From assembly GCF_965641715.1 (NCBI RefSeq), contig NZ_OZ282453.1: a DNA stretch of 64,000 bases. The stretch is one strand, 5' to 3'. The notes under the pieces were generated by a model that worked only from the letters and a program-made list of their open reading frames with translations, ran no database searches and was not told the origin of the DNA. This DNA is from Escherichia coli. GTDB lineage: Bacteria > Pseudomonadota > Gammaproteobacteria > Enterobacterales > Enterobacteriaceae. Shown piece after piece: positions 3,392-47,114 of the stretch. How positions within the stretch are numbered: position 1 is the first letter of the stretch; every line of letters begins with the position of its first letter. The position numbers and the translations under genes were made by a program.

Positions 3392-4621
3392 TTATGCTGG
3401 CCAATCCCACTGCTGATAGGCAGAGAATAGGCGCGTGAGCTCAGCAGGCGCAAGAATATCAACAATATTAGCTCTGTAGCTATGCGATTTACCTAATGGA
3501 ACATTTTCGAAATGATTAGCTTGATAAGGATTAAAATCGTGAAGCTCACCTAATGTTGAGATATCGGTATTAATAGTTTTAAGCCAAGAAACAAGAATTA
3601 CTTTTGCCCCTGTTCTCTGTATGTAAGCTCTTGCCGATTCAAAACTATAGCCTCGAGTTGTTATATCATCTATAAGAAGTACTGTTTTACCAGGGCCTAA
3701 AGGTGGTTTTTTATAGGTAGTTCTAGGATTTCTGTGTGGCTGAGAATTAAGACAAATTGTATTAAGTTGATTGCAATGGTCAATTGCAACTCCCTCATTT
3801 CTTGCTTTTTGAGATTTTTTGGAAGTCGTATGCCTTAAAATAAGATCTGGGATATACGTCTTGCGAAAACATTTTCCAAATATTGAAATCGCTTCATCCA
3901 TGATATTATTCCCATATCCTTGCTTATGCCCTGGATAAACACTAACATAATTAATCATCTTATGAATGCCACTAAAATAGAGACTGGATATTAAGGCACT
4001 CGTCCAAAATTCAGGATGGCCTAATCCATGTTTAGCAGCAGCACGAGCATCTTCAGAGTAAAGAGTATACTCTTCCTTCATGGTGCTGAAAGGAGCAAGT
4101 GCATAGAAATTAAAATCACCATCGTGAATTTCATGACACCAAAGATGCTCTCTTAAACAGAAGGTATCTATAAATCTAGCAATATCTTTAGGGGTTGAAA
4201 ACTCGAAACCATAATCTGTTTTGTCTGCCCACCATGTAGCTCTTAAAAAGAGCAACTCACCATTAACTGCTGTTTGCATGTCGTTTATCGAAGCACCAAT
4301 GTACAAAGTTTCTGTACTTTCCCAACCCATCAAATCAAGGACATATTTTGTAGCATCCGCAGTTGGCTTCCCTGGAATGCTCTTATCTTTCGCTCGACAA
4401 AGATATTTAAATTCTCCCCAATGCTTTTGTAACACATCCTCTAAAGGGGTTCTTTCATCTCCGACAACCCAACCCCTGTTAGTGAATACAACAAACTCGA
4501 TCTTTTTAGTTCTGAAATATCTAATTAATTTATCTACCTCTGCAAAGATTTCGCTATCGATCTTTCCCTTAGGCACAAGAATATCTTCAACACTAAGAAT
4601 CACACCCTTAATTTTGCTCAT
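3392..4621 (-). CDS. satellite cargo: protein with N-terminal Rossmann-like (possibly degenerate HAD-like) domain and C-terminal type I phosphoribosyltransferase domain; ShosT-like candidate
   Basis: PRTase signature VLLIDDITTRG near C-terminus; N-terminal YIGASINDMQTAVNG resembles HAD motif IV; AT-rich; 10-nt gap to upstream gene. Confidence 0.55.
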   Translation of the reverse strand: MSKIKGVILSVEDILVPKGKIDSEIFAEVDKLIRYFRTKKIEFVVFTNRGWVVGDERTPLEDVLQKHWGEFKYLCRAKDKSIPGKPTADATKYVLDLMGWESTETLYIGASINDMQTAVNGELLFLRATWWADKTDYGFEFSTPKDIARFIDTFCLREHLWCHEIHDGDFNFYALAPFSTMKEEYTLYSEDARAAAKHGLGHPEFWTSALISSLYFSGIHKMINYVSVYPGHKQGYGNNIMDEAISIFGKCFRKTYIPDLILRHTTSKKSQKARNEGVAIDHCNQLNTICLNSQPHRNPRTTYKKPPLGPGKTVLLIDDITTRGYSFESARAYIQRTGAKVILVSWLKTINTDISTLGELHDFNPYQANHFENVPLGKSHSYRANIVDILAPAELTRLFSAYQQWDWPA

Positions 4622-14820: not shown

Positions 14821-14838
14821 ATGGTGCCGATAATAGGA
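14821..14838. repeat. attL core: 18 bp at thrW 3' end, repeated at 3194..3211
   Basis: exact 18-mer match. Confidence 0.6.
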
Positions 14839-14897
14839 GTCGAACCTACGACCTTCGCATTACGAATGCGCTGCTCTACCAACTGAGCTATATCGGC
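14822..14897 (-). tRNA. thrW: tRNA-Thr (anticodon CGU)
   Basis: reverse complement reads GCCGATATAGCTCAGTTGGTAGAGCAGCGCATTCGTAATGCGAAGGTCGTAGGTTCGACTCCTATTATCGGCACCA. Confidence 0.9.
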
Positions 14898-31384: not shown

Positions 31385-31565
31385 GCGCATGGCCCCCGGC
31401 GAAGATTGATTTAAGAATTTTCAGGTCGGATGCGGCGTGAACGCATTATTCGGCCTACGGTTCGCGTACAGATTTGTAGGCATGATAAGACGCGTCAGCG
31501 TCGCATCAGGCATCAGCGCACAAATGCCGGATGCGGCGTAAACGTCTTATCCGGCCTACGCCAGA
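31385..31565. repeat. REP/BIME cluster (about 3 REP units in alternating orientation)
   Basis: gccggatgcggcgtgaacgc..., gtaggcatgataagacgcgtcagcgtcgcatcaggcat, gccggatgcggcgtaaacgtcttatccggcctacg. Confidence 0.8.
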
Positions 31566-37850: not shown

Positions 37851-38430
37851 TCACATCTTACATCTTGCCCCTGCCTTGATTATCTTATCTTTCGTTAAAA
37901 TATTAATAGCGATCTTCCGTATCCCTGAAAATAATTCTGCTGCATTTCCTCTTCTTATTTTGAAGTCGTCTTTATTCATTACCACGTCCAGATGCCAGTG
38001 CAATTTATTCTCCACTTGCCAGTGATTTCGGTTCGCTGTGGCGAACTTCTCTGCGGTTAAATCAGCAGAAATGCTATAATATCTGACCGTCATTTCGGGA
38101 TTTTTCTTTTGTTCTGCTATTATTGAGCGAAATGAGACTGCCATGCATAATTTCTTCAGCCCTTTCCATTCAAACGTAAAATCAATAAATTCATCAGAGA
38201 CATGCAAACAATATGAAGACGGGTTTTAATGACATAAATTGCTCCCTTGTGACGACTTTTATCATAAGAGTGCCGGAGCGTTTTTCCATCAATTGTAATG
38301 ACGTCTTTATCATCTGAAGAATGACAGTCACGCATCCAGTTAATAAAGCACTCATGAAATTTTTCAGGACTGATACAGGATACAACTCTGGCAATGATAT
38401 CGTGAACAGGAATACCATTTTCAAAATCAC
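37851..38430 (-). mobile_element. ISAs1-family (H-repeat) transposase remnant, copy A (internally deleted/frameshifted)
   Basis: C-terminal part intact (ORF 37851..38207); N-terminal part ([23 protein letters not shown]) in another frame at 38230-38430. Confidence 0.7.
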
Positions 38431-38772
38431 CATATCACTTCAAAAAATCGGGATGTGTTTCCCCAAATCCTCTATATCTTCCCAGCATTATGCACCAGAA
38501 ATAACGGCGCAAATAGTTAACAGATAGAATATCTGGCAATTTATGTTCCACTTTCCAGGCTTGCCTGTAATCGGGGATAATAGAAATATGTTCCATCAAT
38601 TTTTTAAGTTCCATTTTGCCCCCCTTAATTATGCAATGAGTATTTGATCATGTATAAGCAATGAAAAACAGCTTTAGGTAATAAGGAACACCTCAATTAT
38701 TGAACATAAAATGCGAATTATTTAGTACAAAAAAAGCAGCATTACGTGATTTTTCCCTGGGAGTACAGTGTG

Positions 38773-38824: not shown

Positions 38825-38871
38825 CTACATGTCTACATTTTCCCGGTCACCACCCCCTCAATCTTATGAAC

Positions 38872-40965
38872 TTAACCTCGGCTCACCGTTTTCGATTCCA
38901 TCCAATAAATGACCCGGTTGGATGTGGGCTGATCGCCAACAACTTTGCCATCTGCAGAGATTAGCTTCAGCTCTTTATTAGCCTCATCACCGAAGTAAAT
39001 CATGCGGTAGCGAAAATAACCGCCCCAGGGTTCGCGTCCACCCAGCGAACTTTGCATAAACCAGGCGCGGGAGTCGTGAACCTGGTCATCATAGAGAGCC
39101 AGTAATTCAGCGCAGGGCTGAGTACGCGTTCCCGTTCCCAGTGAATCAATAAAAAATTGTGGATAGAGTCCGTCTCCCATAGCCTTAATTTGCTGATATT
39201 CTTTTGCTTCATCATCGCCATTAATCAGATACACCGGATATTTAGGAATGACATCCACAAGAATCTGAATGGCTTTCTCCATGACGCTGCCGTTAATATC
39301 GCGCGTCCATCCTTTATAATCGCTCTGAAATTCTCGGGCTGCCTCTCGCAACTGATACTGAGCATTGGTTGGGTCAAGGATAGGAATGCCCTGATTACTT
39401 TCATCAAGTGTGCCATTCCCTTTCTGCTTGTTCGCCCGCTCTTTTTCAATATTTTCCATTTGTTCTTTACGCGCTTTAGCCTCTTTATCAAGTCCATCTT
39501 TATCCAGCTGTGGCGCCTTAATATAAAAAGGTTGCACAAGAAGGCTGTTATTCGCATAGCGACCGATACGCCAGGCGGTGATCCAGCCGATCTGATCGCT
39601 AATTGCGCTTTCAAGAACCTGGGCAAGTTGATAGGAGTGATAATCTTCCCTCGTATCAATCATTTCTTCTGTACCCTGCAAGGTGGTGTTCAGCAGCGTT
39701 TGTCGCCAGATGTTGAAGCGTTTTGTTAATGAATTAGCAATCGTAAATTCCTTTACGCTAGAAGGACTCATAATTCGCAGAGGCGACACACCTTTTATTA
39801 ATGGAGTAACAAATTTAGAATAAACAGCAAGTGGTGCTCCTGAATCAAATGCAGCAAGATACATATCATGCAGTGCTATCTGAGAAAGAATTTCGCCTGA
39901 GTCACCACAGGACTTCCCCTGATCGCGAACGGGATAGCCACCACCGACATCAGAGTGCATCCCCGGATAGATAATTTCCTCTGCATTTAAAGGATAATTT
40001 CCGTCTGGACGACGGATTGAATCCAGCGGAAAGCACAGCCGCTGCTCATGCGCGGCAACGAAGTGGCGGCAGCATTTAATCAGGCCGGGAAACTGCCTCT
40101 CATCAGGGAGTTGCTGAGTACTATCGGCCCATCCCATATGACCGGCAGCGCCCGGTAAAACATGCGCCGCCCCCACAGAAGCTACGGTATCCAGCAGCCC
40201 CAAAAACTCAATACTGACAGCTAACCCGGCCAGCATCACCTGTTGCTCCTGCGGGCAAGCTAACTGAGTCAACCAGTTAACAAAAGTTCGTGCTTCCGCT
40301 GCGCCACGGGAAAATCCGTAGATAAACAGCTTTACGTTTAGCAGGCGCGGACTGGCTTGCTCTAACAGTCCCTGTAATTTTTCCAGGTAGGGGTTAATCA
40401 CATTGCGACGATTCACTTCACCAGTCATAGGCCAGGGAGCGCGCATAAGAGGAATGTGCTCTTTTGCCACATTATCATCCAGTCGCTTATGGGAAGGGTC
40501 AATGGAATAGCTCAGGGCATCCACGAGGCGTAATAATGCCCAATTAATTCGATCTTCACCACCAGTAGCGAACTCCAGCCCGCTGTTGCTGTAATCCATT
40601 TCACCTATCTTGGGAAATGGTGTGCCTACACCCGGTATATAGTAGTTAAAATATCCCTGTTCTTCTGCGTTCTGATAGGTCGTATGAAACAGTTTGGCAA
40701 TATTGATTGGGTGTCCAGGAGTGTCATTATATTCATTATTATTTGTACCATCAAAAAACAGACTAATATGCAGACTTTGATTACACGTAAAGCCAATTCT
40801 AAATCCAGCCTGTTTACTACAGTTGGTTTTGTGCTCTTCTGTTTTATTGATTTGTTTTAGGTAGTTCGCGTTTACCTGCGCTTCAGATAATATTAATCGC
40901 CCATTTTCAGGAAACGCTGGGGGGGCATAACACGGAAAAGCCAGACCACTTATTTCGCTGGACAT
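38872..40965 (-). CDS. tle1: T6SS phospholipase effector, Tle1 family
   Basis: 697 aa; lipase motif GFSRGA (GxSxG); sits after adaptor gene in vgrG island. Confidence 0.7.
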   Translation of the reverse strand: MSSEISGLAFPCYAPPAFPENGRLILSEAQVNANYLKQINKTEEHKTNCSKQAGFRIGFTCNQSLHISLFFDGTNNNEYNDTPGHPINIAKLFHTTYQNAEEQGYFNYYIPGVGTPFPKIGEMDYSNSGLEFATGGEDRINWALLRLVDALSYSIDPSHKRLDDNVAKEHIPLMRAPWPMTGEVNRRNVINPYLEKLQGLLEQASPRLLNVKLFIYGFSRGAAEARTFVNWLTQLACPQEQQVMLAGLAVSIEFLGLLDTVASVGAAHVLPGAAGHMGWADSTQQLPDERQFPGLIKCCRHFVAAHEQRLCFPLDSIRRPDGNYPLNAEEIIYPGMHSDVGGGYPVRDQGKSCGDSGEILSQIALHDMYLAAFDSGAPLAVYSKFVTPLIKGVSPLRIMSPSSVKEFTIANSLTKRFNIWRQTLLNTTLQGTEEMIDTREDYHSYQLAQVLESAISDQIGWITAWRIGRYANNSLLVQPFYIKAPQLDKDGLDKEAKARKEQMENIEKERANKQKGNGTLDESNQGIPILDPTNAQYQLREAAREFQSDYKGWTRDINGSVMEKAIQILVDVIPKYPVYLINGDDEAKEYQQIKAMGDGLYPQFFIDSLGTGTRTQPCAELLALYDDQVHDSRAWFMQSSLGGREPWGGYFRYRMIYFGDEANKELKLISADGKVVGDQPTSNRVIYWMESKTVSRG

Positions 40966-41504
40966 GTTGCTGGTTCCTTCATCTCGCGGGGTTCTTTGAT
41001 GGGATAATTCGGTGTGCCATACTTCTGGCAGACGGTTGTCACTTTAATCTGATTACACGTTAGAAAATGAACGGTCAGGCCACAAAGCTCAGCATCGTAT
41101 TCCGGGATATCAACAATTGCGGTATGTTGAATGTAACTTTCTTTTAGTTTTTTCTCCCAGGCCTGATATTTATCCCAATCCTTATAGAGTGGTGGCGGAG
41201 GTACTGTATTTGGGGTAATTTCCCATTCAACCTGGGCTTTTAATCCAGAATGCCACTTATCTGGCAGCATAACGCAACAATATCCTCCACCGTCTCCGAA
41301 TGGACCAATATTTGGTCCGCCGTAACCATTGATGTGTATATAATTTATATCCTTATCCGTATGATTTATCCCATTAATATCCACAGCAGTGTAATCACCG
41401 CTATTTTTTGCCATTGAACAGCCTGATACTGCAAATAAAATCATTAGAGAATAACATTTGAAAATCGTTCTCATACTGATACTTTTCCTTATTTTGCTGG
41501 ACAT
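40950..41504 (-). CDS. lipoprotein, candidate Tle1 immunity protein
   Basis: lipobox LFAVSGC; overlaps tle1 start by 16 nt. Confidence 0.4.
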   Translation of the reverse strand: MSSKIRKSISMRTIFKCYSLMILFAVSGCSMAKNSGDYTAVDINGINHTDKDINYIHINGYGGPNIGPFGDGGGYCCVMLPDKWHSGLKAQVEWEITPNTVPPPPLYKDWDKYQAWEKKLKESYIQHTAIVDIPEYDAELCGLTVHFLTCNQIKVTTVCQKYGTPNYPIKEPREMKEPATCPAK

Positions 41505-41817
41505 GTTGCTGGTTCTTTTACTTTGAGAGATTTTAATTGATGGGTATTGTTTCTACGACAATAAAGTTTTGACAAAGAAGCAAATAAAATGCATATCTTT
41601 CGATTGTCACACATTGGAATATCGACAGAGCATTGATGATATTACGCAAAATATATTGCAGCCAAGTGAACTGACATTACGATCGAACACAAATGCAACA
41701 TGATGGATACTACCATTACATGTCGAGCTTGATTTTCCGTTTATTTCACGATTATCTCTTGATATTAACAGCTACGGACTTTTAAACAGATAAATCTCCC
41801 CGTACATCACCACAATA

Positions 41818-42588
41818 TTATCCTTCGAAGTCCCGCAAAGCTCCGAAATATTTCGCGTCATTGGCTCTGAAAGCAATATCAAGACAGTGGGCAAAATAGC
41901 TTTCCTGACTGAGTTCACTGACTGCTTTCTCCTTCATCAGGACTTCAGCGTCGCAGATACAGCCCATCAATCCCACCTGTACATCATCCACCCGATTCAT
42001 CTCCGGGTTGTCAGTAAGCCTGCGTTCTGGTGAAAAACTTCCTGATTTCCAGTTAATCTCACCATCACGGTCTAACCAGCTCCAGAACAACGCAATATCA
42101 GTAAATGTCGCCTGCTGCTCGTTAGTCAAAACATGTGTGAACAGTAAAGGGAACACCCGATTATCATAGTAACGCAGCAATCCGGTCTGTTCTTCCCACT
42201 GAACCTGTGACAATACCTGAAGATGCCGCCCCAGCAGGTCGAATGTAAGAGGGGATATCAACAAAGTAAGACGCGGCGTATCAGCAAATGACGCCATCAG
42301 TTGTGCCAGAAATTTGCGATGGCTACTGAGCGCAAAGTACAGGCGTAACACTACAGGGGAATACTCCATCGTCTCAGCTTCAGGCGTTCCTTCAAACAGG
42401 GCATACCAGTGAATGGCTGGCCACAGATGAAGTATCTCATTTTGCAAAGGTTGGTCGGTTCCAGCCTGGTCAACAAGCACATCTATGTAATCCAAACCAG
42501 CGGCAGAACAGAATGATTCAGCCTGCTTCAGCCAGATAATATATTTGTCTTGATCGGTAGCGCGTGGCGATACTGTTATCATCGTCAT
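41818..42588 (-). CDS. T6SS effector adaptor/chaperone (DUF4123-like)
   Basis: 256 aa; positioned between vgrG remnant and effector. Confidence 0.45.
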   Translation of the reverse strand: MTMITVSPRATDQDKYIIWLKQAESFCSAAGLDYIDVLVDQAGTDQPLQNEILHLWPAIHWYALFEGTPEAETMEYSPVVLRLYFALSSHRKFLAQLMASFADTPRLTLLISPLTFDLLGRHLQVLSQVQWEEQTGLLRYYDNRVFPLLFTHVLTNEQQATFTDIALFWSWLDRDGEINWKSGSFSPERRLTDNPEMNRVDDVQVGLMGCICDAEVLMKEKAVSELSQESYFAHCLDIAFRANDAKYFGALRDFEG

Positions 42589-42594
42589 TCTCCC

Positions 42595-43010
42595 TTATCC
42601 ACGAGGCGCAAAAGCGGCGGCGGCTTCCTGCGCCCTTTTCAGGCACTCCTTACACACCGATTTTTCTGGCGCTTCCTCACCCTCATCGTTGTTATCATTC
42701 TGATCGGACGATGCATTACTATCATTTTGCTCAGCCGCTAAACTTTTATCATCTGCCAGCGCTTTCAGAACCGCCGGTTGCAGCGTCGGCACCGGCGTTC
42801 CCGGACTACCGCCGCTATTGAGATTGATTTTCGGCCCGACGATGTCCACGCCCCCTGAATGGATGACCACAAACGAACCGCCCACCTTCAGGCTTATCCG
42901 GCTGCTGCTCTCCAGCACCACATCGCCCTCCACCTTTAACCACGCCACCGCAGTCAATGGCATCACCGGTTCTGGCGGTAGGTTTATCGTCGATAAAGGC
43001 GGAAGAGGTG
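42595..43010 (-). pseudogene. Chimeric PAAR 3' fragment fused to vgrG 3' fragment (recombination scar)
   Basis: PAAR motif SSAFIDDKPTARTGDAIDCGGVV in one frame, then vgrG C-terminus VLESSSRISLKVGGSFVVIHSGGVDIVGPKINLN in another; junction ~42940. Confidence 0.65.
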
Positions 43011-43082: not shown

Positions 43083-43859
43083 TCAATAAGGTTGCTTTAC
43101 CAAGCTTCCATCGATATTGATGGAAAATTCATTAGACCTAATATGAACAGAATGTTGCTCATCATCTTTATCTAATATTTGATTAACAAAAAAAAACGTA
43201 TTTTTATCAAATTCATAATTATCACATCCCTCTCCACTAAATGATATAGCTCTAAAATCATATTCATTACATGAGTATCTTTTCATCAAAATAGAGAGGA
43301 ATGTTTCATTAATTGATTTTAATACAAACCATTTTCTCCTAACAAGTTTGTAGTTTAATGTTTTTATATGATAATTATTTAAACTGGGGAGAAATGAATG
43401 CATATCATTCAATTTTACATCAAAAGATATTTTTTTACCTGCCGTAATTTCCACCCATCGGCTCAAATTCAAATCAAGCTCAAAGGGACAAAAGCCTCCT
43501 AGATAGTCTAAGCTAATATTTCCTGATGTAATCAAGAATTCGTCATCACACAAAGCATCAAATACATCTCCATTTCCTTTTTGGAAGTTCTTTGGATAAT
43601 ATATTCTGGGGAGAAAATACGATTTAGTACTACTGTTATAAAAAGTTATAGTAGCTAAAATATTTTCAGCATGTGGCTTAACCACCAATTTAACAACAAC
43701 ATCATTTGTTAATTCATTACTTATATTTTCCTCTGGCGCTAAATTATGGCTAAGATAAATAATTGGTTTCCCATTGTCACTTCTTCGTTCAAAACCGAAT
43801 CTGTATTTTTTTACAAAAAGATTCTCATTATCTATTGCAATTGCAATAGATAATGGCAA
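43083..43859 (-). CDS. hypothetical protein, candidate immunity for upstream HExxH effector
   Basis: AT-rich 258-aa ORF directly downstream of putative effector; no signal peptide seen. Confidence 0.35.
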   Translation of the reverse strand: MPLSIAIAIDNENLFVKKYRFGFERRSDNGKPIIYLSHNLAPEENISNELTNDVVVKLVVKPHAENILATITFYNSSTKSYFLPRIYYPKNFQKGNGDVFDALCDDEFLITSGNISLDYLGGFCPFELDLNLSRWVEITAGKKISFDVKLNDMHSFLPSLNNYHIKTLNYKLVRRKWFVLKSINETFLSILMKRYSCNEYDFRAISFSGEGCDNYEFDKNTFFFVNQILDKDDEQHSVHIRSNEFSINIDGSLVKQPY

Positions 43860-43924
43860 AAAACAAAGAAAAAAAAACCATCAGTACAACATAATTTAGA
43901 TTATAGAAAGCCAACCTCTTCATC

Positions 43925-44728
43925 TTATTTCCCCGTCAACTCATCAAAACATTTTTCTATCTCTTTTATTTTATCCTCTACTTTTTTTGCTAACATATTC
44001 TCATCTTGAGCTTCAATATCTTCATCATTTAATTTTATATAAAAATATCTTTCAACATTATATGCATTCTCAAATAACTGATCTTTACGCAATGTAACCA
44101 GATCATTAGCCACTGAAACATGTTTCTCATAGCTAACTTCATCCTTATTACTTGTTGCGAACTTATTAATACCCGTATAATCCTGAGTCCACATACCACC
44201 TTTTTGATTGTCACCCCAATACCAAAATATATGGGACATTTCATGGCAAAGTGTACTTACATGAGAGTCTCTACCTGTAACCGACTGTTTTATACCATGT
44301 CTGTATTCAAAATGCGCTCCGATATTTACAATGTAAGGAGGATCAAGATGTGGACTAATAAAAGCAGCAAATTCATTGCAGTTCGTATAATCTTTATAGC
44401 TTTCGATCGTCAAACCATTTGCAATCGTCATTATTCGTCTGATGCCATCCATTATGAATAGTCTCGCTTGCATTCGTTTCCCAGTATCTTCCCCAACTTT
44501 TCTGATTTTTATAATGTCCTCGCCTTTAAGGCCAAAAACTTTAATAAAATCTCGTTGTTGTTCCCCCTCCCATGACATAATATCATCTGCTCTTTTCAAT
44601 AAAACCATTTTCTGTGCTTTACAAGCCTTACTCATCATTATTTTAAATTTATTTGTAATTTTTTGCGGTACTACACATACTTGCGACTCGGGTTGTGAAG
44701 TCCCACTAGTATTATTATTCCCTGCCAT
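43925..44728 (-). CDS. putative zincin-like (HExxH) metallopeptidase toxin, T6SS effector candidate
   Basis: HEMSH motif (LCHEMSHIFWYWG); start MAGNNNTSG overlaps vgrG stop; AT-rich; ORF track extension to 45103 is spurious. Confidence 0.45.
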   Translation of the reverse strand: MAGNNNTSGTSQPESQVCVVPQKITNKFKIMMSKACKAQKMVLLKRADDIMSWEGEQQRDFIKVFGLKGEDIIKIRKVGEDTGKRMQARLFIMDGIRRIMTIANGLTIESYKDYTNCNEFAAFISPHLDPPYIVNIGAHFEYRHGIKQSVTGRDSHVSTLCHEMSHIFWYWGDNQKGGMWTQDYTGINKFATSNKDEVSYEKHVSVANDLVTLRKDQLFENAYNVERYFYIKLNDEDIEAQDENMLAKKVEDKIKEIEKCFDELTGK

Positions 44729-47114
44729 AATGCCCCTCCGGCTCAATATAAAAAGCATCCGAAAATAACAATTGGACTTTAATTTCCTGTGCTGTATCTG
44801 TATAAAATATTTCTGTATATCCCTCTCTGTCTGTTTCACCACGCGTCTGTGTGCCATCCTCAAAAAAGGCAATATACTGCGTCTCTGAATACGGTATCCC
44901 GTCATCGTCCGTAAAATGGAACTGGAGGGTATATTTTTCAGGATCATCTTCATCGTCACCGCCATCACCTCCTCCGTCACTCCCTGCGGGATTGCCACTA
45001 TCCTCTCCGGAGTCATCACTGCCATCATCACTGCTCTCATCCTCCGGAGCCTCCAGCACCGCCGGCTGCATCGTCCCCACCGGTGTCCCCGCACTGCCCC
45101 CACCGTTCAGGTTTATCTTCGGCCCGGCAATATCCACTCCGCCCGGCTGAATGACGATAAACGAGCCACCCACCTTCAGGCTTATCCGGCTGCTGCTCTC
45201 CAGCACGATATCCCCGTCCACTTTTATCCCCAGCGCGCCACTCACCTTCTCCGCCAGGTCCCCCTTCACCTCCAGGCTGTGCTTCCCCTCCACCAGGCTG
45301 ATGTGGTTACCCGTCGTCTTATGCTCCTGCTTCCCTTTCACCGTCACCCTACGGTCATTTCTGACGTACAGACCGTCATCGTGACTCACGCTCACCGTCC
45401 GGTCATTTGTCACCTTCAGCGTCTGGTCGTTACGTACCGTTATGCTCCGGTCGTTCGCCACCGTGATACTCTGGTCGTGGCCTCCTTCTTTTCTGGTCCC
45501 GACCTCAACCGTCTGCCCCTTCACCACCGTTATCTTCTGGTCGTTACCAATGGTCTCCGTATGGTCATGTTTCACATCCGTTGTCCGGTCGTTGAGCACC
45601 TCCGTATCCATGTTCTTCTGCGCATGGATATACACCTGCTCATTACTGGTGGCGTCCTCAAAGCGCAACTCGTTAAATCCGCTTCCTTTATAGGTCTTCG
45701 ACCGTATCGTCATCTGCGTCTTCGTCCCCGGCAGGCTCCCCGGCGAACGGTTGTCCTCATGGTACGTCCGGCCCATGACCAGCGGCTGGTCCGGGTCTCC
45801 GTTCAGGAAGTCAACAATCACCTCCTGACCCACCCGCGGTATCGCCAGGTTACCAAACCCCGGCCCCGCCCACGCCTGTGATACCCGCACCCAGCATGAA
45901 CTCGCCTCCGTCATCCCGTGATAACGGTCCCAGTGGAACTTCACCCGTACCCGGCCATGTTCGTCGCAGAATATCTCCTCACCCTTCGGCCCGGTGACAA
46001 TGGCGCTCTGCGGCCCGTCCACCTTCGGTTTGCTTTGCAGCCGTGGACGCCACGTCCGGTCCGCCGGTATCACCTCTAACTGATTTCCCAGCGTGGTTCC
46101 TCTCCCCTGGCTGCCGTGCAGCGCCTGCGGCTGGCTTCCTGACAGTATGCTCTGTACCACCTGCCATTCACGGTTCAGCATCTTCTGCGGATGCCCCGTC
46201 AGCGTAAACCGCGTTCCCGGCCACAGCCTCGGCGAATTACTCTGCCCTGTGGCCTTTTCCGCATCACTGCGCAGGCTCTCCATCTGGTACAGCGTGAAAT
46301 CCTTGCCGTGCTGCTCATCCTTGAACCTTCCCGGATAATCAAATATCTCGTACTGCGCCAGCTGTCCGTTCAGGTTCTCACCCTGCTGCTCATACATCCC
46401 CGGCCAGTCCGGCACCTTAAACGTGTAATCCTGGCTCTGCACCGACGACGGGCGGACATGCGCCTCATAACGGAACATACTGAGACACTCCGTCTCCGCT
46501 CCTGCCGATGTGTCCGGGTTAAACGGAAGCTCTCCCGCCTGTGACAGCCCCGCCACATCGTCGCACAGCGTCAGCTTCTGCTCCGGACTGTCCGCCGCAA
46601 ACCGCTCAAAGAAGAAAATTCCTTCTTCCGCCCACAGCCGAGCCAGAAACGCCAGGTCGCTCTCCCCGTACTGGACACAGAACTCCCGCGCCGGATGGTC
46701 TTCATAAAACAGCGGAGTCCACTCCGTGACGCCGTTCTCGTTCAGTAACGTGGCCGATATCGTCCGGATATCCTGCTGCTGAAAAATACGAAAGTTCTGC
46801 CGCAGCCCGCACCGCCATAACGGCGGCTCAATACGCAGGTGATAACGCATCTGCCAGCCGTTGTTCTCCTGCATGCCAAAGCCCGCCACCACGCCGGTGA
46901 CATAACGCTGCGCCACCGCGCCCTGCCAGATGGCCAGCGTCGCCTTCTTCTCCAGCAGCATCTCCGCCGTCTGCATAAAAGAGTCGCTGGCAACATCCAC
47001 ACTCATCACAAACGGATAAGACTGGTTCTGGATTAACCTGAAATTCACCACTGCAAAGGTGTCCGGCTCCTGGCCGTCAATCTCCAGCGTAAAGCGCAGA
47101 CCGTTTAAGGACAT
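44715..47114 (-). CDS. vgrG: T6SS spike protein VgrG with acidic linker and C-terminal extension domain
   Basis: 799 aa; repeated octapeptide region; Asp/Gly-rich linker then ~70-aa C-terminal domain. Confidence 0.9.
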   Translation of the reverse strand: MSLNGLRFTLEIDGQEPDTFAVVNFRLIQNQSYPFVMSVDVASDSFMQTAEMLLEKKATLAIWQGAVAQRYVTGVVAGFGMQENNGWQMRYHLRIEPPLWRCGLRQNFRIFQQQDIRTISATLLNENGVTEWTPLFYEDHPAREFCVQYGESDLAFLARLWAEEGIFFFERFAADSPEQKLTLCDDVAGLSQAGELPFNPDTSAGAETECLSMFRYEAHVRPSSVQSQDYTFKVPDWPGMYEQQGENLNGQLAQYEIFDYPGRFKDEQHGKDFTLYQMESLRSDAEKATGQSNSPRLWPGTRFTLTGHPQKMLNREWQVVQSILSGSQPQALHGSQGRGTTLGNQLEVIPADRTWRPRLQSKPKVDGPQSAIVTGPKGEEIFCDEHGRVRVKFHWDRYHGMTEASSCWVRVSQAWAGPGFGNLAIPRVGQEVIVDFLNGDPDQPLVMGRTYHEDNRSPGSLPGTKTQMTIRSKTYKGSGFNELRFEDATSNEQVYIHAQKNMDTEVLNDRTTDVKHDHTETIGNDQKITVVKGQTVEVGTRKEGGHDQSITVANDRSITVRNDQTLKVTNDRTVSVSHDDGLYVRNDRRVTVKGKQEHKTTGNHISLVEGKHSLEVKGDLAEKVSGALGIKVDGDIVLESSSRISLKVGGSFIVIQPGGVDIAGPKINLNGGGSAGTPVGTMQPAVLEAPEDESSDDGSDDSGEDSGNPAGSDGGGDGGDDEDDPEKYTLQFHFTDDDGIPYSETQYIAFFEDGTQTRGETDREGYTEIFYTDTAQEIKVQLLFSDAFYIEPEGHYGRE
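45650..47114. repeat. ~1.5 kb direct repeat, vgrG 5' region copy 1
   Basis: near-identical to 51535..52995 (1 mismatch in the ~130 bp compared by eye); boundaries approximate. Confidence 0.7.

What the first reader, a model, noticed from the sequence alone, without database searches (positions are those of the whole stretch)
40950..41530. Same ~27-bp sequence precedes both the tle1 start and the upstream lipoprotein start
aaccagcaacatgtccagc(a/g)aaataag occurs at both ATGs (around 40965 and 41504), so both proteins begin MSS. This suggests a past duplication or recombination that replaced a 5' end; the lipoprotein may really start at the internal MRTIFK.
Basis: seen in the sequence. Interest (0 to 1): 0.25.

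Follow-up and report, generated by a model that had tools for sequence, protein, structure and literature searches.

The report
Boundary repeat of immunity-gene tandem array
The repeated 27-31 bases are real, but they are the ordinary gene-to-gene joint of a tandem array of Tli1a immunity genes upstream of the Tle1 toxin gene of an E. coli type VI secretion locus; the upstream copy is a dead leftover of a lost array unit.

Summary
A 31-nt direct repeat with 2 mismatches lies at 40949-40979 and 41488-41518, with none expected by chance.

Genes on the minus strand run vgrG, M35 peptidase, a vgrG 3' relic, tla1 (DUF4123), tli1a (DUF3304 lipoprotein) and tle1.

The repeat is the intercistronic joint of the tli1a/tle1 operon. 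It holds the last codons of tli1a (…KEPATCPAK*), a Shine-Dalgarno AAGGA, the next gene's ATG, and the tli1a stop 16 nt inside that gene.

In eight E. coli loci read here, tli1a forms a tandem array of 0-3 units, and the joint occurs N+1 times for N units. One strain has lost the unit cleanly between the two repeats and also has a frameshifted tle1. Hafnia, Rahnella, Pantoea and Superficieibacter use the same joint.

The upstream copy in the window is vestigial. Its SD is mutated to AAAGA (-0.9 against -5.7 kcal/mol) and no gene ends in it. The lipoprotein therefore most likely starts at the internal ATG (MRTIFK, own SD -6.2), as RefSeq annotates it.

Either start gives the same mature lipoprotein. 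This is an ordinary tandem-duplication and recombination scar, of low interest.

The parts
40949..40979 (-). Functional junction. It holds the last 10 codons region of tli1a (…KEPATCPAK*), SD AAGGA (40975-40979), the tle1 ATG (40963-40965) and the tli1a stop TAA (40950-40952). The stop/start overlap is 16 nt.
   Evidence: for sequence and ORFs. One search gives SD dG -5.7 kcal/mol with spacing of about 8. Searches show the same joint in four other genera.
41488..41518 (-). Vestigial junction copy upstream of the single tli1a unit. The SD is mutated to AAAGA and the ATG at 41502-41504 opens the long MSSKIRKSIS… ORF. Its TAA plus the following GGA (41486-41491) forms the SD of the internal start.
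   Evidence: One search gives dG -0.9. Searches show it is conserved at this position in all E. coli loci read.
40950..41474 (-). tli1a (DUF3304 / Tli1a-family outer-membrane lipoprotein immunity gene), counted from the internal ATG MRTIFK. The lipobox is VSGC, with Cys at 41418-41420. The longest ORF extends to 41504.
   Evidence: Pfam DUF3304 98.6 bits. NCBIfam Tli1a_fam 211 bits against a cutoff of 110. RefSeq coordinates in A30.
40949..41122 (-). Conserved 3' homology block of the tli1a unit, about 174 nt including the junction. It is 91-99% column conservation among six E. coli units whose middles are only 56-83% conserved.
   Evidence: alignment profile; third-codon-position identity 78-98% among E. 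coli units against 36-60% between E. coli and other genera.
38872..40965 (-). tle1, a T6SS phospholipase effector of 697 aa with a GFSRG motif. Its N-terminus MSSEISGLAFPCYAPP is conserved across genera, so its start is the junction ATG.
   Evidence: Pfam T6SS_Tle1-like_cat and _C. Orthologues.
41519..41817 (-). A 299-nt spacer between tla1 and the vestigial junction. It is unannotated, unique to this locus, and has no detectable homology to tli1a apart from a marginal ~40 nt next to the junction.
   Evidence: The promoter scan is not above shuffles.
41818..42582 (-). tla1 (DUF4123), the adaptor/chaperone of Tle1.
   Evidence: Pfam DUF4123. NCBIfam Tla1 220 bits against a cutoff of 200.
42595..42939 (-). 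The 3' relic of the vgrG that originally preceded tla1. It is context for the erosion of this module.
   Evidence: 95.4% identity over 324 nt to the 3' end of the full vgrG of strain E1. RefSeq marks it as a pseudogene.

Best explanation
The window is E. coli chromosome at the end of a type VI secretion cluster. The 31-nt repeat is the intercistronic joint of a tandem array of Tli1a immunity genes that ends in the toxin gene tle1.

Each joint is dual-coding. In one frame it encodes the C-terminal …MKEPATCPAK* of a Tli1a. Inside those codons sit a Shine-Dalgarno (AAGGA) and the ATG of the next cistron, and the upstream stop falls 13 nt after that ATG. Any cistron placed after a tli1a, whether another tli1a or tle1, therefore begins MSS/MSG. 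The layout is the classic one for translational coupling; coupling here is inferred, not shown.

The joint is also the end of a ~170-nt 3' block that is kept nearly identical among otherwise divergent units. That block is a substrate for homologous recombination between units. Shown outcomes are a copy number of 0 to 3 among E. coli strains and mosaic units.

The window carries a contracted array of one mosaic unit. The copy at 40949-40979 is the working tli1a|tle1 joint. The copy at 41488-41518 is what remains of a lost upstream unit (inferred): its SD is dead and no ORF with tli1a homology ends in it.

The surviving tli1a is most likely translated from the internal ATG at 41474, using an SD (TAAGGA) built partly from the vestigial stop codon. 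Either start yields the same mature lipoprotein after signal peptidase II cleavage at Cys29/Cys19.
For: The repeat is real and non-random.

Gene identities are supported. Tle1, DUF3304 and DUF4123 match in Pfam. Tli1a_fam and Tla1 in NCBIfam score above their curated cutoffs.

In eight E. coli loci the unit counts are 0, 1, 1, 1, 1, 2, 3 and 3, and the joint counts are 1, 2, 2, 2, 2, 3, 4 and 4. The joint always sits at unit boundaries with 527/539-nt spacing. Across the collection 69 of 5426 genomes carry the locus; of the 60 records listed, most have three units.

Strain 2018-05-2CC has spacer, one joint, then tle1 with nothing between. That is exactly the product of recombination between the window's two repeats, and its tle1 is frameshifted.

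Units are about 70% identical overall between types A and B, but the joint and the 3' ~170 nt show 91-99% column conservation across units. Third-position identity in that block is 78-98% among E. coli units against 36-60% between genera, despite near-identical protein. This indicates homogenisation within the array.

The window's unit is a mosaic. Columns 1-300 match the type A units at 87-100% per 30-column block (L002_u1 90-100%, L003_u2 87-100%). Columns 301-360 and 391-420 match the E1 pseudogene unit at 87-100%, while columns 361-390 are only 63% (33% to the type A units).

The same overlapping SD-ATG-stop joint links 5 units in Hafnia and 3 in Rahnella, and links tli1a to tle1 in Pantoea and Superficieibacter.

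Superficieibacter has a statistically significant relic of a tli1a 3' end plus joint just after tla1 (score 25 against a shuffle maximum of 19, 0 of 1000). This is an independent example of the same kind of leftover.

SD energies are -5.7 for the tle1 ATG, -0.9 for the upstream junction ATG and -6.2 for the internal ATG. RefSeq uses the internal start.
Against: Homology between the 299-nt spacer and tli1a beyond the 31-mer is only marginal: 17 of 1000 shuffles for 40 nt, and not significant by local alignment. There is no Pfam hit on its translation. The 'lost upstream unit' therefore rests mainly on logic and on the Superficieibacter analogue. The logic is that 14 nt of the repeat are tli1a 3' coding sequence everywhere else.

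Translational coupling and the actual start codon were not measured.

For type B units the internal ATG has a poor SD (-1.5) and the junction ATG a good one. The junction ATG is therefore a genuine start in some units, and the MSS start cannot be dismissed generally.

Conservation of the 3' block could partly reflect selection on the protein and on the dual-coding joint rather than gene conversion alone.
Confidence: 0.85

Rival explanations
1. One reading: a recombination event transplanted the 5' end of tle1 onto the lipoprotein gene, replacing its original 5' end, so that MSSKIRKSIS is a foreign N-terminus.
For: The first five codons of the long tli1a ORF (MSSKI) match tle1's MSSEI/MSSKI. 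Class-ii joints in Hafnia (MSGEIRRAM-MARK…) also look like the tli1a|tle1 joint fused to a tli1a leader.
Against: The repeat extends 14 nt upstream of the ATG into what is tli1a 3' coding sequence in every other copy. It recurs at every unit boundary in arrays of 2-5 units. The lipoprotein's own start, SD and signal peptide are intact downstream. Nothing was replaced; a unit boundary was retained.
Confidence: 0.07
2. The upstream copy is functional: tli1a is translated from the junction ATG at 41504, or from both ATGs, giving a longer signal-peptide n-region. The repeat is kept for that reason.
For: The ATG and the reading frame through to the internal Met are intact in all first-position units read. 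In type B units and in the Hafnia/Rahnella MSGLRFVF… units the junction ATG is clearly the real start.
Against: In the window the SD is reduced to AAAGA (-0.9 kcal/mol) and no upstream cistron exists to couple from. RefSeq calls the internal start. The extension would be removed with the signal peptide anyway.
Confidence: 0.1
3. The 31-mer is a target of a site-specific recombinase, i.e. an integron-like cassette site that inserts and excises immunity-gene cassettes.
For: Units are gained and lost precisely at the repeat.
Against: No integrase or recombinase gene is adjacent; there is only a decayed ISAs1 transposase downstream of tle1. The repeat has no dyad symmetry beyond ACATGT. Homology between units extends about 170 nt beyond the 31-mer, enough for RecA-dependent exchange, and mosaic breakpoints lie inside units, not only at the joint.
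Confidence: 0.02

Closest known systems
Tle1 / Tli1a / Tla1 module of T6SS vgrG islands (P. aeruginosa PA3290-PA3294; Lefebvre et al. 2026, PMC13133936)
   Same: The gene set and order are the same: vgrG, a DUF4123 adaptor, one or more DUF3304 lipoprotein immunity genes, then tle1. As in that paper, the duplicated immunity genes include a decayed copy (Tli1b is proposed there to be a pseudogene).
   Different: The E. coli locus has 0-3 units joined by an overlapping SD-ATG-stop joint, a vestigial joint upstream of the first unit, and in this window a truncated cognate vgrG. The paper does not describe the joint.
Recombination between tandem immunity-gene paralogues through conserved homology blocks (T7SS esaG and tipC; Garrett et al. 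2022, PMC9484751)
   Same: These are strings of non-identical immunity genes with blocks of high similarity at gene ends. Recombination through those blocks explains loss, expansion and chimeric genes. The tli1a units here show the same features.
   Different: The secretion system differs (T6SS, Gram-negative), as does the protein family (DUF3304 lipoprotein). Here the 3' block is additionally dual-coding with the next cistron's start.
Translationally coupled overlapping cistrons (textbook stop/start overlap with an SD inside the upstream gene)
   Same: There is a 16-nt overlap, and the SD AAGGA lies about 8 nt upstream of the ATG within the upstream coding sequence.
   Different: Coupling was not measured here. 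The overlap is longer than the common ATGA/TAATG forms.

Membership tests
Tli1a family (DUF3304) T6SS lipase immunity proteins | DUF3304 domain / NCBIfam Tli1a_fam above the curated cutoff | tested here: met
   Pfam PF11745 scores 98.6 bits against a cutoff of 22. NF053804 scores 211 bits against a cutoff of 110.
Tli1a family (DUF3304) T6SS lipase immunity proteins | Lipoprotein signal peptide with a lipobox; outer-membrane sorting | tested here: met
   The signal peptide reads MRTIFKCYSLMILFAVSG|C, with lipobox VSGC and Ser at +2. This was read from the sequence against the standard lipobox rule; no predictor was run. Localisation itself is not testable here.
Tli1a family (DUF3304) T6SS lipase immunity proteins | Encoded next to a tle1 (DUF2235) effector and a DUF4123 adaptor | tested here: met
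Tli1a family (DUF3304) T6SS lipase immunity proteins | Neutralises the cognate Tle1 | not testable with these tools
   This needs co-expression or competition assays.
Tandem immunity-gene arrays evolving by recombination through homology blocks | Several non-identical paralogues in tandem | tested here: met
   There are 2-3 units in most E. coli carriers, 5 in Hafnia and 3 in Rahnella. The window itself holds one unit.
Tandem immunity-gene arrays evolving by recombination through homology blocks | Conserved sequence blocks shared by all units | tested here: met
   The joint plus the 3' ~170 nt show 91-99% column conservation, against 56-83% in the middle.
Tandem immunity-gene arrays evolving by recombination through homology blocks | Copy-number change and chimeric genes among close relatives | tested here: met
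   There are 0, 1, 2 or 3 units in loci that are otherwise 91-100% identical. Strain 2018-05-2CC shows a clean deletion. The window unit is a mosaic.
Translationally coupled overlapping genes | Stop of the upstream gene overlaps or abuts the start of the downstream gene, with an SD in the upstream coding sequence | tested here: met
   The overlap is 16 nt and the SD dG is -5.7 kcal/mol.
Translationally coupled overlapping genes | Downstream translation depends on upstream translation | not testable with these tools
   This needs reporter fusions with premature stops.

The most novel reading that the evidence does not exclude
The dual-coding joint together with the homogenised 3' block may be a maintained cassette-exchange device. 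On this reading it lets Enterobacterales shuffle and resize sets of Tli1a specificity modules. The variable middle segment exists as at least four types shared across genera and is recombined with different N-terminal halves. This would be a T6SS counterpart of the T7SS esaG system, selected for rapid change of immunity repertoire rather than an incidental by-product of duplication.
Probability: 0.3. Interest if true: 0.35.

Novelty: new member of a known kind. Interest (0 to 1): 0.15.

Why it matters
The result mainly settles annotation. It explains why a lipoprotein and a toxin share a start, and it supports the internal start for the first tli1a. It also identifies the upstream repeat as a scar rather than a signal.

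More broadly, the conserved joint and 3' block make this immunity array easy to expand, contract and shuffle. The window's strain carries a contracted one-unit array next to a truncated vgrG. This looks like an effector module in decay. That bears on which strains remain protected against Tle1, but it does not open a new question.

Tried and rejected
- Chance repeat: rejected, with 0 of 100 shuffles matching.
- Homology of the 299-nt spacer to tli1a. Local alignment was not significant (39 of 300 shuffles; 203 of 1000). An end-anchored alignment was marginal for 40 nt only. A suggestive VDIP…C… peptide in one frame gave no Pfam hit at E<=10. I therefore do not claim that the spacer is a decayed unit.
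- Internal promoter in the spacer: 5 consensus matches in the 40900-41900 scan (both strands) against 3.5±1.8 in shuffles, so no evidence.
- Rfam families: no match within the 40950-41530 region or the spacer. The only window hits are a tRNA and naRNA4 elsewhere.
- Spacer found elsewhere in E. coli: no, it occurs once per genome in the same 69 genomes.
- Idea that tle1 is badly 3'-truncated by the ISAs1 remnant: Pfam C-domain coverage (1-265 of 353) is about the same as in longer orthologues (1-278), so this was rejected. Homology does, however, run about 11 codons past the stop.
- The genome-contig scan with Tle1 returned only 4 loci, so cross-genus statements rest on four species.

Full report
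**Observation.** No match appeared in 100 dinucleotide-preserving shuffles, even with three mismatches allowed. The repeat finder extends it to 31 nt with two mismatches, spaced 539 nt apart. Each copy contains an ATG that opens an ORF beginning MSS. One is the 697-aa ORF at 38872-40965 and the other is the 184-aa ORF at 40950-41504, both on the minus strand.

**What the genes are.** The 697-aa protein has the Tle1-like catalytic and C-terminal Pfam domains. The 184-aa protein is a DUF3304 protein, and the gene upstream of it (41818-42588) is DUF4123. NCBIfam places the last two in Tli1a_fam (211 bits, cutoff 110) and Tla1 (220 bits, cutoff 200).

These names come from work on P. aeruginosa. 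There DUF3304 lipoproteins are the immunity proteins of the T6SS phospholipase Tle1, Tla1 is its adaptor, and a second, decayed immunity copy sits alongside the first (PMC13133936).

The window is 99.9% identical over the 1301 bases compared (40700-42000) to E. coli strain A30. Its annotation shows the module at the end of a T6SS cluster in this order: hcp, vgrG, M35 peptidase, a hypothetical gene, a vgrG 3' pseudogene, DUF4123, DUF3304, tle1, then a decayed ISAs1 transposase.

**Anatomy of the repeat.** In gene orientation the tle1-proximal copy reads AAGGAACCAGCAACATGTCCAGCGAAATAAG.
- In the tli1a frame it encodes …(K)EPATCPAK followed by TAA.
- In the tle1 frame ATG TCC AGC GAA ATA encodes MSSEI.
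- AAGGA lies about 8 nt upstream of the ATG and pairs with the 16S tail at -5.7 kcal/mol.
- The tli1a stop lies 13 nt after the tle1 ATG, giving a 16-nt overlap.

This is the usual layout of translationally coupled cistrons. Coupling is inferred, not shown.

**Relatives show what the repeat is.** The locus is present in 69 of 5426 complete E. coli genomes. I read eight loci. Unit counts and joint counts are:

| Locus | tli1a units | Joints |
|---|---|---|
| 2018-05-2CC | 0 | 1 |
| window | 1 | 2 |
| A30 | 1 | 2 |
| 33F4 | 1 | 2 |
| PapRG-04-4 | 1 | 2 |
| FDAARGOS_944 | 2 | 3 |
| E1 | 3 | 4 |
| 2017-02-2CC | 3 | 4 |

The joint always sits at unit boundaries, with 527- or 539-nt spacing. Across the collection three units is the commonest state.

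The zero-unit strain reads spacer, one joint, then tle1, with nothing between them. That is exactly the product of an exchange between the two repeats seen in the window. Its tle1 is frameshifted by loss of one C from a C7 run.

**Why both proteins start MSS.** Every cistron that follows a tli1a inherits the same start, whether it is another tli1a or tle1. For tle1 the junction ATG is the true start. Its N-terminus (MSSEISGLAFPCYAPP) is conserved in Pantoea, Rahnella, Hafnia and Superficieibacter orthologues.

The same overlapping SD-ATG-stop joint links five units in Hafnia psychrotolerans and three in Rahnella perminowiae. In many of those units the junction ATG directly opens the lipoprotein signal peptide (MSGLRFVFLMFVFFVSGC). 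The joint is therefore old and functional in general.

**The units recombine.** Type A and type B units are about 70% identical overall. Across the six E. coli units aligned, column conservation is 96% for the first 30 nt and 91-99% for the last ~170 nt, against 56-83% in the middle.

In the last 150 nt, third-codon-position identity among E. coli units is 78-98%. Between E. coli and other genera it is 36-60%, although the peptide is nearly the same. This points to homogenisation within the array.

The window's single unit is a mosaic. Columns 1-300 match the type A units at 87-100% per 30-column block (L002_u1 90-100%, L003_u2 87-100%). Columns 301-360 and 391-420 match the frameshifted first unit of strain E1 at 87-100%. 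Columns 361-390 are only 63% identical to that unit and 33% to the type A units.

This is the pattern described for T7SS esaG and tipC immunity arrays, where conserved blocks mediate loss, gain and chimeras (PMC9484751).

**The upstream copy in the window.** It lies 299 nt downstream of tla1 and directly abuts the only unit. All E. coli loci read have it there.

Fourteen of its bases are, in every other copy, the last codons of a tli1a. It must therefore derive from the 3' end of a former unit. Beyond the 31-mer, similarity to tli1a is only marginal for about 40 nt (17 of 1000 shuffles) and absent further out. The rest of that unit has been deleted or replaced.

Superficieibacter electus offers an independent parallel. 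It carries a significant ~75-nt relic of a tli1a 3' end plus joint just after tla1 (0 of 1000 shuffles). Hafnia and Rahnella lack such a relic, and their first unit follows tla1 directly with its own SD.

In the window the relic's SD has mutated to AAAGA (-0.9 kcal/mol). No gene ends in it apart from an unannotated 41-codon ORF.

**Start of the lipoprotein.** The internal ATG at 41474 (MRTIFK…) has an SD TAAGGA at -6.2 kcal/mol. That SD is formed by the relic's stop codon plus GGA. RefSeq annotates the gene from this ATG. It gives a canonical 18-residue lipoprotein signal peptide ending in the lipobox VSG|C.

I therefore favour the internal start for this copy, at about 0.7. The question has little consequence for the product, because either precursor is cleaved before the same cysteine. 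For type B units the reverse holds: the junction ATG scores -5.7 and the internal ATG -1.5. The MSS start is therefore genuine in some units.

**Context.** The 345-nt vgrG pseudogene upstream of tla1 is 95% identical to the 3' end of the full-length vgrG that precedes tla1 in strain E1. Twelve genomes carry this relic next to the hypothetical gene of the M35 module, and 57 carry the full vgrG.

In the relic haplotype the loci I read have 0-2 units, one frameshifted tle1 and one truncated tla1. The two full-vgrG loci read have three units. This suggests, by inference only, that the Tle1 module lost its cognate spike and is eroding.

**Verdict.** The repeat is real and fully explained. It is the boundary sequence of a tandem immunity-gene array, present once as a working tli1a|tle1 joint and once as a dead remnant. 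It is a further example of known phenomena: duplicated T6SS immunity genes, overlapping coupled cistrons, and recombination between tandem paralogues. It would not surprise a specialist. Interest is 0.15.

Noticed in passing
window 42595-42939 (-): This is a 3' relic of a vgrG, 95% identical over 324 nt to the end of the full vgrG that precedes tla1 in strain E1. A different vgrG plus an M35-peptidase module (43083-47114) now sits upstream. Twelve E. coli genomes share the relic with that adjoining sequence and 57 have the full vgrG. Tle1 may have lost its cognate spike.
   Followed up: partly
window 40919-40925 (C7 run on the gene strand, tle1 codons 14-16): This homopolymer sits at the 5' end of tle1. 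Strain 2018-05-2CC has C6 here, which is its tle1 frameshift, and that same strain has lost all tli1a units.
   Followed up: partly
L010 (Hafnia), L009 (Rahnella), L008 (Pantoea), L011 (Superficieibacter), L002/L003/L007 (E. coli): tli1a units: The variable middle segment of Tli1a falls into at least four types that recur across genera (e.g. KDWDKYQAWEKKLK…, KDREKFxAWK…, PIAMKKEGFGYEE…, LGTDEYRKAYA…). These types are combined with different N-terminal halves, e.g. L007 unit 2.
   Followed up: partly
L011:1284-1358 (Superficieibacter electus): A relic of a tli1a 3' end plus junction lies just after tla1 and is separated from the intact tli1a by about 210 nt of AT-rich spacer. It is significant against shuffles.
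   Followed up: yes
L007:~4365-4490 (E. coli 2017-02-2CC) and other strains with the same extra ~124 nt: There is a 124-nt insertion immediately after tla1 whose core (GAATCCCCAGGAACGTACATAAGTACGTGACTGGGG) looks like an ERIC/IRU repeat, recognised from memory and not tested. It is absent from the window.
   Followed up: no
window 41489-41614 (-): This unannotated 41-codon ORF ends in the same KEPATCPAK* as Tli1a because it runs into the vestigial junction. One frame of the spacer reads …SVDIPMCDNRKIC…, faintly like Tli1a's …IVDIPEYDAELC…, but there is no statistical support.
   Followed up: yes
window 38839-38874 (-): tblastn similarity to the longer Tle1 orthologues of Hafnia and Superficieibacter continues about 11 codons past the E. 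coli tle1 stop codon. The E. coli protein may therefore end at a relatively recent stop; a decayed ISAs1 transposase follows at 37851-38614.
   Followed up: partly
window 38872-40965 compared with L002/L003/L004 tle1: tle1 alleles are mosaics. Blocks of 64-83% identity (alignment columns ~200-500 and ~1100-1300 against FDAARGOS_944) sit within otherwise 94-100% identical sequence.
   Followed up: no
window 31479-31556 (-) and 14825-14897 (-): Rfam matches above gathering score: naRNA4 (74 bits) and a tRNA (72 bits).
   Followed up: no
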